The notes under the pieces were generated by a model that was given only the letters and a program-made list of their open reading frames with translations, ran no database searches and was not told the DNA's origin. A stretch of 64,000 nucleotides of DNA from Pecten maximus (Eukaryota). The translations under genes and the position numbers were made by a program. The stretch lies in the NCBI RefSeq assembly GCF_902652985.1, contig NC_047024.1, positions 25,110,001 through 25,174,000 of the forward strand, written 5' to 3'. This document shows positions 45,306 to 58,027 of this stretch, one piece after another; positions within the stretch are counted from its first letter, which is position 1, and every line of letters begins with the position of its first letter.

Positions 45306-48300
45306 ATGTTGCCGAAGATACTGTTGATTTACATGACTCTAGGGACCGTCGTTGCGTCGACCTCTTCCAATGGAACAATAGAGGACATGCAGAGACTTAA
45401 TGACACGTTATTTGACAGATACACTTCCGAATTCAGACCTGCTTTTTTCCTTAACCAGACAGTGGAAGTCTTCATCCAATATAAGTTGTTTTCTGTCATA
45501 TACTTCAACGCTATTACTGGGACAATCTCTTTGTCGGGAGCACTGCAGATGAAGTAAGTACATTTAGTTAATCTGTATCAAAGAAATAATTTTTATTTCT
45601 TTTGGTGCCAGTTTCATCAACTATCCACAGGAAGTCAATATATGAATTAAGAAAAAAAATCAATGTTGGTCTACTCTTTAACAGATATAATAGGTATAAT
45701 GATAAAGTACCATAAACCGAAACTGGTTCAAATATATCCTAAGAACAAGCCGACCCTAAAAAAATATTGTTTTGAAAATAAGCAGGCATTATCTTACGAA
45801 CAAACGTTACTTGAAAAAAATTACCTTGATGGATAGCCTTTTGAAGGATAACGTAAGTCAATGGTTTTGCTGCCTCTCCAAACAAACAATCATCCCGAAT
45901 GTGGACCAAATCCGGCTATTCTTCAAGACTTAAGCATTTCTAAGTAGATTTCAGAGTTTTGTTGTTGTTGTTGTCGTTTTTTGTTGTTGTTTTTTTTTTG
46001 TTTTTTTTTTTGTTTTTTTTTGCAATATTTGAACTATCGGACCCCTCTCTCCTGCCCACAGTATGCCACACCCTCTATTTATACAACATTGAACTCCCCA
46101 GCCAAATTTCATCAAAATCCATTAAGTTTTTAGTAGCAATTTTCCCTAGTGAGCGCCGATCCCCAAGGCCTAGGGCACCCACACCATTCGTTTATACAAT
46201 ATTGGACCTGCTTTGCCCAATACTGCTCCACTCCAAATTTAAGCAAAATCCATTCAGACATTCAGGTTTATCAACAATTTTACCAACAGTAGTTTATTTC
46301 ATGGGTGGATAAGTTAGAAATAGAAACAGCTATAACTGCCAATATTTTTTTTAGAATCCCGTCAGTTTTCGTCTGGTTTTTAGTTTTAGTTGGTTGTTAT
46401 TATTATTCAATGAAATCAAGTTTTTTTTTGTGTATGACAGAGGTAGTTAGAGAGCATTATAAATATGACCTAAACATACAAATCAAATTTTCCCTTTAAC
46501 CAGTTGGAAAGACTACCGACTGGAGTGGAATCCGGAAGACTTTGGTGGTGTTTCCGCAATTCTGCTACCGGTTTCCCAGGTCTGGTACCCAAAGATCGTT
46601 CTATTGACAGGCATGGACAATATACAACAAGTGGGATCCGAAGACTTTGATGTTCATGTCGATTTCCATGGCCATGTGATGTGGGTTCCCGGAGGCGTTC
46701 TCATGTAATAATGTTATACGTTTGTTTTGTTTTGTACTTTGTAGCGTCCTATCAATATCTATGTTCATTTACAGCTTTATAATAGTGATGATTATGTATA
46801 TTTCTGGCACGTGTTGTTCTTAGTTACTGTCAGTAAACTACTTTATTTATTTACTCAACAACACTGATCTAGGAAACACATTACTGATAGTGTTTAATTG
46901 TCTTACCATTTAATATTGGATTGTGATTTAAACAAAAACTAACATATATACCTACGTATTTAAGTTAAACAGTTCTTTGTACTCAGTACGACTTTAAAAT
47001 GTGCTTTAGTTTCGTAGGTTTTTTTTTATTTTGGAGCAGTGCGCATTTTGTCTTTTCATGGAATTTGCGACAGAAGATTCGCAAAAGATTTCATGTATAC
47101 TGCATATTCCACGCGCATAGACATTAACCTGCAAATTGAATGGGAATGACAGTGTTCACTGATTAACAAAAAATCTAAAAGCGATTTACTGTAAAAGTGG
47201 AAATATTCGCGGTGTGGAAATTTTCGCTTATTTCGCTATCAGTAAATCTCCGCGAAAATGTCCACCCGCGAATATATTAACACATAAAAATACTTAATAT
47301 AAAAGATACAAGTTAGCGCAAAAATATCTTGACGGCGCGAAAATATCCACACTTTGGAAGCTGGCTAAGCGAAAATTTACACACGCGAAAATATCCACTT
47401 TTACAGTATAACTAAAAGTATTGACCTGAATTAAATTAATATAAATTTGTAATTTAATTTTTTCAAACGATGCCTTGCTTTCTTCTTACTATGTCATACT
47501 CGAAATAAGATACAATTTAATATATATATTAAAAATGTACATATTTCAGGTCATCATGCCAATCAAATGTGCGTGACTTTCCAAGGGACTACCAAACGTG
47601 TACACTCATCCTCAACAACATGATGTACGACAAAGATGATATGAGACTTGTTCCCAGGACTGAAACAGTGGACATGGACTTCTACAGAAAGAACGGTGAA
47701 TGGGACGTCATATGGACAAGAGTCTCGGACCAAGTCCACCGATATGAAACTTTGACATACATTTCATTCTTTTCTATTACGTTCGGTATGATTCGAAAAT
47801 CTGACTACTTCATTATCAACTTGCTGGCTCCGGTGGTAGTACTGTGCGTATTAGATGCCTTCGTGTTTCTGATCCCCGTTGGATCAAGCGACAGAGTTTC
47901 ATTTTCCTTAACCCTCTTTCTGTCACTGACAGTTTACATGTCAGTGATGGGATCATATTTACCATCGACCTCGGATCCTTTGGCTGGAATGACGTATTTC
48001 TTGTTGGCGTCGGTATTGCATAGTACGATGGTGATTTTGATGACAATTGCAACTATACGCTTATATGAAAGAGAACATTTACCTGCCTGGTTGTTTCGTT
48101 TGTATCGATTTATTTTTAGAAAAAACAGGAAAAGCAAAGAAATTAAGTCTCCTGATGACTCATATGAAAATATCCCATTGGAGAAGAGAGCTAGCGATTC
48201 TGCTGAAGACAAAAACTCAAATGTTGTGACGAGACTCTCCTTGTTGAGCGCATTAGACAAATGTCTTTTCGCCATTTCTTTGTCTTCAATGGTACTGATT

Positions 48301-48351
48301 TGCATTGTATTTTACAGTGTGTACCTTCAACACGACCATACTCCGAAATAA
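45306..48351 (+). CDS. Divergent nicotinic acetylcholine receptor-like (Cys-loop ligand-gated ion channel) non-alpha subunit A, ~416 aa
   Basis: Exons 45306-45553 (alternative ATG 45276), 46504-46704 and 47550-48351, phases 2/2. Signal peptide, WKDYRLEWNP, VWYPKI, Cys-loop CQSNVRDFPRDYQTC (C-x13-C), NGEW, four TM helices with M2 DRVSFSLTLFLSLTVY. Confidence 0.93.
47189..47406. mobile_element. TA-flanked MITE (218 bp) in an intron of receptor A
   Basis: TA-CTGTAAAAGTGGAAATATTCGCG ... CGCGAAAATATCCACTTTTACAG-TA; a related right end is at ~51460-51522. Confidence 0.85.
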
Positions 48352-57300: not shown

Positions 57301-58027
57301 GACAGAGATGAGACTCTCTGCACTTAACCACAAGGTAAATATGGGGTATTATACAAAGAACGGTGAGTGGGATGTAACCTGGACAAAGATGTCGGACAAC
57401 TATAGTAAATATAAAGAGCAATCAGCCTCTTTCATGACAATAACTATCGGCATGGCCCGGAAGTCGGAATACTTCATAATAAACGTGCTGATTCCTGTGG
57501 CGGTTTTGTGTATTCTCGAATCATTTGTGTTCCTGATCCCCGTGGGATCTAGTGATCGGGTCTCCTTTTCAATGACTCTATTTTTAGCCTTGTCTGTCTA
57601 CATGTCAGTAATGGGCTCGTTTCTACCGACGACCTCTGAACCGTTGCCAGGGATGACGTATTTCCTGTTGATGTCCGTGATACACAGTACATTGGTTGTC
57701 CTGCTGACTATAGTTACGATTCGTCTGCACGAAAGAGAGGATATGCCGGGTAGATTAGTTCGTTTGTACTGGCGAACAGTTGGGAGGAAAAAAATGAAGA
57801 AACAATACAAGAATGACGACAATTTAAACGAGAATGTTCCATTTGACGATGGAATTCAGGAATCTACTGAGGTATACGAATCCAAAGTTCCAAAGAAAGG
57901 TTCCTTGCTGCAGGCTGTAGATGTGTTTTTGTTTCTGTTAGCACTAACAAGCATGCTAGTGATGTGCATTGTGTTCTACGTGGTCTACCTTATGAATATA
58001 GAGGAGGAGGTAGTTGATTTAGACTAA
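53691..58027 (+). CDS. Divergent nAChR-like (Cys-loop) non-alpha subunit B, ~419 aa; tandem paralog of subunit A
   Basis: Exons 53691-53938, 56406-56606 and 57217-58027; first two coding exons the same size as in gene A (248, 201 nt). WNDYRLKWDP, Cys-loop CHANMRSFPKDHHTC, NGEW, M1-M4. Confidence 0.93.
54490..55712. repeat. 28 bp minisatellite in the first coding intron of receptor B (two sequence variants)
   Basis: TAACATGTTACAATATTGTACATTATAC units (to ~54665) then TAACTAGTGACACACGTGTGCATTACAC units, same period. Confidence 0.95.

What the first reader, a model, noticed from the sequence alone, without database searches (positions are those of the whole stretch)
45306..58027. Tandem nAChR-like subunits that have lost the whole acetylcholine aromatic box: candidate chemosensory channels
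Seen by eye-alignment to alpha7-type subunits: loop A Tyr replaced (PKIVLLTG / PRIVLLNA), loop B Trp replaced (LNNMMY / LNNMIH), loop C has no vicinal CC, loop D Trp replaced (SGALQM / AGSMRI). The Cys-loop, M1-M3 and splice structure are intact, and the M3-M4 loop is short. The paralogs are nearly identical over M1-M3 but diverge in loop C (DQVHRYETLTYIS vs DNYSKYKEQSAS). Established: cephalopod chemotactile receptors are tandemly arrayed nAChR derivatives lacking these residues, and bivalves have large divergent nAChR expansions. Inference: these bind a non-ACh, possibly environmental ligand.
Basis: partly seen in the sequence, partly recalled or inferred. Interest (0 to 1): 0.75.

Follow-up and report, generated by a model that had tools for sequence, protein, structure and literature searches.

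The report
Divergent scallop acetylcholine-receptor-like subunit pair
These are two intact scallop genes for acetylcholine-receptor-like ion-channel subunits that lack most of the residues that bind acetylcholine; they belong to a known bivalve expansion in which such losses are common, and nothing yet shows that they sense environmental chemicals.

Summary
Both genes are real: three coding exons each, 416 and 419 aa, matching two Pecten maximus RefSeq proteins. Gene 1 splicing is seen in RNA-type contigs. Loop A Tyr, loop B Trp, loop D Trp and the loop C cysteines are lost, as claimed. 'Whole box' is overstated: an aromatic stays at the first loop C Tyr position (9 of 9 family members). M1-M3 identity is 77%, not near-identical. 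Most losses are shared with the surrounding expansion: of 54 scallop sister subunits, none has loop A Tyr, loop D Trp or CC. A structural Torpedo beta subunit lacks the same four, so the loss does not imply chemosensation. What is special is a long-stemmed clade, kept 1:1 in four scallop genera, that also lost loop B Trp (sisters 53 of 54), the gating Glu45 and the outer pore acid. It keeps a cation-type pore. Best reading (0.4): a co-subunit of a non-cholinergic cation channel. Close rival (0.3): a rebuilt site for an unknown ligand. The proteins show no special likeness to cephalopod chemotactile receptors and have introns. Tissue is unknown. A new member of a known kind; a chemosensory role is testable but unsupported.

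The parts
45306..45553 (+). Gene 1 coding exon 1: signal peptide, N-terminal helix, beta1-beta2 loop (Glu45 position = Ala, 45510) and loop D (Trp55 position = Ala, 45540)
   Evidence: joint 45553>46504 in contigs of 4 of 4 runs
46504..46704 (+). Gene 1 coding exon 2: loop A (Asp89 position = Lys, Tyr93 position = Leu, 46604) and loop E
   Evidence: joint 46704>47550 in 3 of 4 runs
47550..48351 (+). Gene 1 coding exon 3: Cys-loop, loop B (Trp149 position = Met, 47620), loop C (Tyr at 47743, no CC), M1-M4, M2 with Ser-2', Asp-1', Leu9', Val13', Ser20'; short M3-M4 loop with conserved ENxP motif (48166)
48352..48830 (+). Gene 1 3' untranslated region (approximate end)
   Evidence: transcript contigs end at 48732-48832 in four runs
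42044..42113 (+). Upstream exon used by the RefSeq model of gene 1 (adds an N-terminal extension through acceptor 45264); uncertain
53691..53938 (+). Gene 2 coding exon 1 (Glu45 position = Val, 53895; Trp55 position = Ser, 53925)
   Evidence: joined protein equals P0007
56406..56606 (+). Gene 2 coding exon 2: loop A (Arg89, Leu93) and loop E with Phe109, Tyr117, Asn119
57217..58027 (+). Gene 2 coding exon 3: Cys-loop, loop B (Met at 57287), loop C (Tyr at 57410, no CC), M1-M4, ENxP motif (57830)

Best explanation
Two functional, anciently duplicated non-alpha subunits of a pentameric cation channel that acetylcholine does not gate through them. They form a derived branch of a scallop-specific burst of the known intron-poor bivalve nAChR-like expansion. 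Most likely they act as co-subunits in heteromers with loop-B-Trp-bearing subunits of the sister clade. The partner would supply the principal face and drive gating. These subunits would supply a complementary face, change pore conductance (no acid at 20', Asp at -1') and perhaps trafficking (ENxP motif). Shown: gene structure, splicing of gene 1, fold, residue states, orthology, phylogenetic place, purifying selection on the pore. Inferred: cation selectivity, co-assembly, the co-subunit role, and that the ligand is not acetylcholine.
For: The family (9 sequences) is one clade at 100/100 on a 0.68 stem, sister (100/99) to scallop subunits; each gene forms a four-species orthologue set. Against 54 scallop sisters the family has lost Trp149 (sisters 53 of 54; family Met 9 of 9), Glu45 (sisters 50 of 54; family Val 8, Ala 1) and the 20' acid (sisters 49 of 54; family 1 of 9), and has Ser-Asp for Gly-Glu at -2'/-1'. 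Glu45 and its salt bridge matter in principal alpha subunits, while changes are tolerated in non-alpha subunits (PMC10899235, passages). The Lys145/Asp200 pair that relays binding (PMC2266616, abstract) is replaced by hydrophobic residues. Torpedo beta lacks the same four box residues. The pair stays 1:1 while the sisters show species-specific duplications. Sisters share the scaffold in Mizuhopecten (2, one with the adjacent accession) and the chromosome in Argopecten (8), judged by equal contig length. Pore region dN is 0.13 with synonymous sites saturated. Leu9' and Val13' are kept in 9 of 9, with an acid at -1' and no Pro at -2'.
Against: The remodelled principal face is itself conserved: Met149 in 9 of 9, an aromatic at +14 from the beta9 Trp in 9 of 9, an aromatic at the Asp197 position in 8 of 9, and a loop C of 31-34 residues against 29 in 46 of 54 sisters. 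That fits a new binding site. Torpedo beta keeps Glu45 and Asp89, so accessory status does not need their loss. E45A and E45L muscle receptors still gate (PMC2151659, abstract). The pre-M1 Arg, Cys-loop Asp and beta8-beta9 Glu are kept. The complementary face is poorly conserved among orthologues (2 of 11 sites invariant in each gene), which is odd if it lines a conserved site. None of the 12 P. maximus sisters found lies on this chromosome. There are no co-expression or co-assembly data.
Confidence: 0.4

Rival explanations
1. The two subunits, as homomers or as a gene 1/gene 2 heteromer, form their own non-acetylcholine receptor with a rebuilt pocket: Met149, the retained loop C aromatic and Phe197 on the principal face; Phe/Tyr109, Tyr117 and Asn119 on the gene 2 complementary face. 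The ligand is probably uncharged or hydrophobic and may be endogenous or environmental. This includes the first reader's chemosensory reading.
For: Clade-specific conserved principal-face residues and a longer loop C. Gene 2 orthologues keep Tyr117 and Asn119 in 4 of 4 and an aromatic at 109 in 4 of 4. The pocket-lining set holds 2-5 aromatics. CRT1 uses relocated aromatics and its outer pocket diversifies (bioRxiv 2025.03.03.641191 and 2025.10.28.685082, passages). Complementary sites vary among orthologues (2 of 11 invariant vs 9 of 11 and 5 of 11 in two sister orthologue sets). Scallop tentacles identify predators by touch and chemistry (PMC8580434, passages).
Against: The complementary-face variability is not significant against an exposed-site proxy (2 of 11 vs 43 of 87, p=0.06 per gene), and a control strand set is as variable in gene 2 (2 of 11). 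Relaxed constraint explains it equally well. There is no birth-death expansion in this clade and no special likeness to CRT1 or CRB1. Glu45 is lost. Tissue is unknown.
Confidence: 0.3
2. They are beta-like structural subunits of ordinary acetylcholine-gated receptors, filling the non-binding position beside canonical alpha subunits.
For: The same four box residues are absent in Torpedo beta. The best structural matches are muscle nAChR subunits (Z 33.2, rmsd 2.8, 358 aligned, tied with alpha chains).
Against: The data reject a clade with the two conventional non-alpha-type sequences in my set (p-AU 0.0005; these are unnamed and typed by residues, and the group was chosen after seeing the tree). 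Several well-supported nodes nest the genes in the mollusc expansion. No Trp55 is available for an acetylcholine site.
Confidence: 0.12
3. They are gated or tuned by protons or metal ions, or are partly constitutive, like ZAC or GLIC, and have no organic ligand.
For: Gene 1 orthologues end in a His/acid tail (4 of 4). Gene 2 orthologues have His at 151 (4 of 4) and His in the Cys-loop. ZAC is gated by Zn2+ and in humans by protons, with a poorly conserved loop C (PMC11536092, passages). Glu at position 48 in 8 of 9 lies where I recall the GLIC proton-sensing Glu (recalled, untested).
Against: Loop C is long, not ZAC-short. Glu48 also occurs in 29 of 168 other relatives and is Gly in gene 1 itself. 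ZAC scores no better than other superfamily members (Z 24.1, rmsd 7.1, 337 aligned).
Confidence: 0.1
4. They are decaying, non-functional duplicates.
For: Loss of Trp149, Glu45 and the Cys-loop Phe137 (Arg/Lys) together.
Against: Open frames in four genera, spliced transcripts of gene 1, M1-M3 dN 0.13 with saturated synonymous sites, and orthologue M1-M3 identity of 80-99%.
Confidence: 0.03

Closest known systems
Intron-poor, tandem bivalve nAChR-like expansion (Jiao et al. 2019, PMC6896357)
   Same: Tandem pair, two coding introns, LBD plus TM architecture, binding residues missing. The paper counts 138 genes in Mizuhopecten and says only 13 of 132 oyster genes keep all principal sites; it suggests diverse ligands.
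   Different: This clade has also lost loop B Trp, Glu45 and the Gly-Glu at -2'/-1', which the scallop sisters keep, and it is kept 1:1 rather than expanding. I found no paper on this clade.
Cephalopod chemotactile receptors CRT1 (8EIS, 9E6B) and CRB1 (8EIZ)
   Same: nAChR-derived, same fold (Z 22.7, rmsd 2.8, 288 aligned, 25% identity; Z 23.2, rmsd 3.1, 314 aligned, 18%), canonical acetylcholine site absent.
   Different: CRs are described as intronless and cephalopod-enriched (PMC13174522, passages) and are shown to be ligand-gated in sucker tissue. These genes have introns, score higher against vertebrate nAChRs, and have no ligand or tissue data.
Muscle nAChR non-alpha subunits (Torpedo beta 2BG9_B; human beta and epsilon, bovine gamma)
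   Same: Same four box residues absent in Torpedo beta; top fold matches (Z 31-33).
   Different: Torpedo beta keeps Glu45 and Asp89. The scallop genes are not in that lineage and have a short M3-M4 loop.
Alpo4 of Alvinella pompejana (8BX5; PMC10338036)
   Same: Orphan lophotrochozoan nAChR-like subunit without vicinal CC and with no known agonist (Z 25.1, rmsd 3.0, 323 aligned, 25%).
   Different: Alpo4 keeps the aromatic residues, including loop B and loop D Trp (passages).
Zinc-activated channel ZAC (8WGE; PMC11536092)
   Same: Cation channel of the superfamily without a transmitter site.
   Different: ZAC has a much shorter loop C; 17% identity.

Membership tests
Cys-loop pentameric ligand-gated ion channels, nAChR-like | LBD with C-x13-C loop followed by four TM helices | tested here: met
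   Pfam PF02931 and PF02932 above cut-off on exons 2 and 3; AF2 pLDDT 91.4; fold matches E 4e-34
Cys-loop pentameric ligand-gated ion channels, nAChR-like | Assembles as a pentamer and conducts ions | not testable with these tools
   needs heterologous expression
Cation-selective pLGICs | Acid at M2 -1', no Pro at -2', Leu9' gate | tested here: met
   Ser-2', Asp-1', Leu9', Val13' in 9 of 9; sequence motif only; Asp replaces the usual Glu
nAChR alpha subunits | Vicinal cysteines in loop C | tested here: not met
   absent in both genes and all family members examined
nAChR alpha subunits | Principal aromatics TyrA, TrpB, TyrC1, TyrC2 | tested here: not met
   TyrA>Leu, TrpB>Met; TyrC1 position aromatic; TyrC2 Ile/Ala gap-free or Phe with a gap
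Conventional ligand-binding non-alpha subunits | Loop D Trp55 on the complementary face | tested here: not met
   Ala and Ser
Conventional ligand-binding non-alpha subunits | Clade with conventional non-alpha subunits | tested here: inconclusive
   rejected against two unnamed non-alpha-type sequences (p-AU 0.0005), but no named molluscan beta subunit was in the set
Bivalve intron-poor nAChR-like expansion | At most two introns and tandem arrangement | tested here: met
   two coding introns each (three in the RefSeq model of gene 1), tandem, 5.3 kb apart
Bivalve intron-poor nAChR-like expansion | Nested among lineage-specific bivalve paralogues | tested here: met
   sister to named scallop subunits, then an oyster sequence; the paper's family number could not be mapped
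Cephalopod chemotactile receptors (CR clade) | Intronless coding sequence | tested here: not met
   two spliced coding introns; intronless CRs per PMC13174522
Cephalopod chemotactile receptors (CR clade) | Monophyly with CRT1/CRB1 or the wider 'CR-like' clade | tested here: inconclusive
   no CR sequence was available for the tree; nearest relatives are scallop paralogues; fold Z to CRT1/CRB1 22.7-23.2 against 29-31 for nAChRs
Cephalopod chemotactile receptors (CR clade) | Enriched in sensory epithelium and gated by environmental compounds | not testable with these tools
   runs carry no tissue label

The most novel reading that the evidence does not exclude
Scallops independently turned a branch of nAChR-like genes (at least 12-17 fast-duplicating Trp149-bearing subunits per species) into contact chemoreceptors of the mantle tentacles. 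This conserved 1:1 pair would be their shared co-subunits, as IR25a and Orco are for insect receptors (analogy recalled). The channels would detect predator cues such as sea-star steroidal saponins (cue chemistry recalled) and trigger the swimming escape.
Probability: 0.15. Interest if true: 0.8.

Novelty: new member of a known kind. Interest (0 to 1): 0.3.

Why it matters
The function of the hundred-plus nAChR-like genes in each bivalve genome is an open question, and the one bivalve tentacle transcriptome study I read did not screen Cys-loop receptors (PMC11682238, passages; no occurrence of 'acetylcholine' or 'cys-loop'). This pair is a clean test case: conserved across four aquaculture-relevant genera, transcribed, and differing from its sisters at a few defined sites. 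If it works with the expanding sister clade in tentacles, it would be a second origin of taste-by-touch channels in molluscs. As it stands, it is one of many uncharacterised divergent subunits.

Tried and rejected
No whole genome is held for this window, so the array beyond the window could not be read. CR sequences could not be obtained for a tree. CRT1 and CRB1 are not among the 60 best PDB sequence hits of gene 1 (cut-off 110.9 bits), though they are for a gastropod relative (115.4 and 107.8 bits), and they are absent from the 50 best rows of the Foldseek re-alignment; these absences exclude nothing. The TM-versus-ECD contrast was rejected as unusual. Tissue data: Jiao Table S1 lists Mizuhopecten genes under PY_T ids that I could not map to the orthologues. 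Searches for the accessions found no paper and nothing in the Alpo4 supplements. The MolluscaGenes supplement could not be read; it may assign these proteins to a named clade, including 'CR-like'. The two 2023 Nature CR papers are not held. The RefSeq upstream exon 42044-42113 had no cover in any of 4 runs; this proves nothing. Gene 2 expression was not tested with reads. 8 of 24 listed runs held next to none of gene 1 exon 3, which is no proof of absence. A second AF2 model (gene 1) was submitted but had not finished. No complex prediction was run, since any two pLGIC domains would be expected to pass by likeness to solved structures. The ESM Atlas gave only generic LBD clusters.
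Full report
1. What is in the sequence. The region holds two tandem + strand genes of three coding exons each, with GT..AG introns and open frames of 416 and 419 aa. Pfam finds the ligand-binding and transmembrane domains of Cys-loop receptors. A homologue search returned proteins identical to both: RefSeq XP_033752351 (with a 37-aa N-terminal extension from an exon at 42044-42113) and XP_033752352 of Pecten maximus. 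Gene 1 exon 3 is held by 16 of 24 listed runs in six studies. In four runs laid on 41500-50200, contigs join 45553 to 46504 in 4 of 4 and 46704 to 47550 in 3 of 4. Gene 1 is therefore transcribed and spliced as modelled. Gene 2 was outside that stretch. The AF2 model of gene 2 has mean pLDDT 91.4 and the full pLGIC fold; its best matches are nicotinic subunits.

2. The binding site. Residue labels follow conventional alpha7 numbering, which I recall; positions are anchored on HMMER alignments to alpha7 and muscle alpha and on CC-bearing relatives. Tyr93 is Leu, Trp149 is Met, Trp55 is Ala or Ser, Asp89 is Lys or Arg, and there is no vicinal CC. But the first loop C Tyr position is Tyr in both genes and aromatic in 9 of 9 family members. 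The model puts this residue in a short turn after beta9 ends at residue 209, so it may not sit in a canonical box. The second loop C Tyr is ambiguous. HMMER aligns Phe there by opening a 2-residue gap in beta10. The gap-free register from the pre-M1 Arg gives Ile or Ala and puts the Phe at the Asp197 position; it matches the continuous strand 222-231 of the model, and I prefer it. The paralogues are 77% identical over M1-M3 (68 of 88), 51% in the ECD, 40% in loop C and 32% in the M3-M4 loop. Among 45 control pairs with 44-60% ECD identity, 7 have higher TM identity. Synonymous sites are saturated; dN is 0.13 in M1-M3, 0.38 in the ECD, 0.52 in loop C and 0.53 in the M3-M4 loop. The duplication is old and loop C is not specially accelerated.

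3. How common is the loss? A profile search returned the best 150 of 14,178 hits. From these I took 168 non-family domains covering the core; shorter pieces were dropped. Tyr93 is present in 8, CC in 7, Trp55 in 19 and Trp149 in 104 of 168. Of 166 callable domains, 59 lack all four, and 34 have no aromatic at any of the three positions and no CC. Jiao et al. (PMC6896357; parts 1-4 of 6 and parts of Table S1 read) report 99-217 such genes per bivalve, many intron-poor and tandem, with 13 of 132 oyster genes keeping all principal sites. A 2026 preprint (PMC13174522, passages) notes binding-site substitutions in several molluscan clades and a 'CR-like' clade that includes bivalves. The Torpedo beta chain also lacks the same four residues. 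Loss of the box is therefore neither rare nor diagnostic of chemosensation.

4. Where the pair sits. Orthologues of both genes occur in Argopecten, Ylistrum and Mizuhopecten, each pair on one contig by equal contig length and, where accessions were seen, with adjacent numbers. In a 60-sequence ML tree the nine family members form one clade (100/100) on a stem of 0.68 changes per site. Each gene forms a four-species group (97/99 and 99/93), and one unnamed sequence (P0012) branches before the split. The sister group (100/99) is all scallop (8 of 8 named). A search with one sister returned 55 proteins, 52 named from the same four scallops. I tabulated 54 sisters: 49 from that search and 5, leaving out three short scallop fragments and two unnamed fragments. 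They are 90%-identity cluster representatives, so 12-17 per species is a floor. None has Tyr93, Trp55 or CC; 53 keep Trp149, 50 keep Glu45, 52 have Glu at -1' and 49 an acid at 20'; several groups show species-specific duplication. The window clade has Met149 (9 of 9), Val or Ala45 (9 of 9), Ser-Asp at -2'/-1' (9 of 9), an acid at 20' in 1 of 9, a loop C of 31-34 residues against 29, and a new invariant ENxP motif in the M3-M4 loop. AU tests on 32 sequences reject grouping with two unnamed conventional non-alpha-type sequences (p=0.0005) or three CC-bearing ones (p=5e-5); the groups were chosen after seeing the tree.

5. How it most likely works. The pore keeps Leu9', Val13' and an acid at -1' without Pro at -2', so I infer a gated cation channel. 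The changes on the clade's stem remove features that matter in the subunit that binds agonist and drives gating. Glu45 and its salt bridge matter in alpha but are tolerated in non-alpha subunits (PMC10899235, passages), and the Lys145/Asp200 relay (PMC2266616, abstract) is hydrophobic here. With 1:1 retention beside an expanding Trp149-bearing clade, I put 0.4 on a co-subunit role in non-cholinergic heteromers. Against this, E45A and E45L muscle receptors still gate (PMC2151659, abstract). The new principal-face residues are conserved, gene 2 keeps aromatics at 109 and 117, and none of 12 P. maximus sisters found lies on this chromosome. A rebuilt site for an unknown ligand gets 0.3. Complementary-face sites are invariant at 2 of 11 in each orthologue set, against 9 of 11 and 5 of 11 in two sister sets. 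This is p=0.06 against an exposed-site proxy, and a control strand set is as variable in gene 2, so it cannot separate relaxed constraint from diversification. Beta-like partner of canonical alpha subunits (0.12), proton or metal gating (0.1) and relic (0.03) follow.

6. Relation to chemotactile receptors. CRT1 binds ligands through Y58, W122, F124 and F192 (bioRxiv 2025.03.03.641191, passages), so CRs relocate aromatics rather than lose them. The model scores Z 22.7 (rmsd 2.8, 288 aligned) to CRT1 and 23.2 (rmsd 3.1, 314) to CRB1, against 29-31 for nicotinic subunits. CRs are described as intronless; these genes have introns. They could work like CRs, but membership is not met on intron structure and could not be tested by tree. 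Scallop tentacles do identify predators by touch and chemistry (PMC8580434, passages), and a bivalve tentacle transcriptome study did not screen Cys-loop receptors (PMC11682238, passages). That keeps the novel case alive at about 0.15.

7. Novelty. Ten full-text searches found the expansion and its binding-site losses in print, but no paper on this clade or its accessions. Subscription papers and the MolluscaGenes supplement were not visible and may cover it. Other papers seen as passages only: PMC11526382, PMC10338036, PMC11536092, bioRxiv 2025.10.28.685082. An earlier scan note on a sea-urchin subunit with similar losses is an unchecked lead that such remodelling recurs. Verdict: a real, partly overstated observation; a new member of a known kind; interest 0.3.

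Noticed in passing
window 462-27510 (long exons 6268-7434, 14474-15640, 25160-26314, - strand): Three near-identical tandem copies (97.6-98.2%) of an 8-10 kb unit carrying a gene with a 384-388 codon open exon and no Pfam or NCBIfam match above cut-off. A recent tandem duplication or an assembly artefact.
   Followed up: partly
window 42520-44864: Nested inverted repeats (outer arms 441 nt, 96%; inner arms 353 nt, 92%) upstream of gene 1, inside the first intron of the RefSeq model; looks like a foldback or MITE-type element. Contigs of two runs skip 42518-43832.
   Followed up: partly
window 50303-51355, 54502-55710, 60662-63999, 32532-33545: Tandem arrays of 25, 28, 27 and 34 bp units; the 28-bp array lies in gene 2 intron 1.
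   Followed up: no
window 48166 and 57830: An ENxP motif is invariant in 9 of 9 family members within an otherwise variable M3-M4 loop; in gene 1 orthologues it reads Tyr-Glu-Asn-Ile/Met, resembling a tyrosine sorting or SH2 motif (resemblance recalled).
   Followed up: no
window about 48325-48348 (gene 1 C-terminus): Gene 1 orthologues end in a His/acid tail after M4 (4 of 4), a possible metal or proton site.
   Followed up: no
window 45313, 45419, 45448: Three non-synonymous differences in gene 1 exon 1 among transcript contigs (P3L, R38S, F48Y), probably alleles.
   Followed up: partly
proteins P0186-P0231 and P0022, P0023, P0027, P0033, P0036, P0037, P0040, P0041: A scallop-restricted burst of at least 12-17 Trp149-bearing, CC-less subunits per species with very variable loop C and species-specific duplications. 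It is a better candidate for a tuning-receptor family than the window pair.
   Followed up: partly
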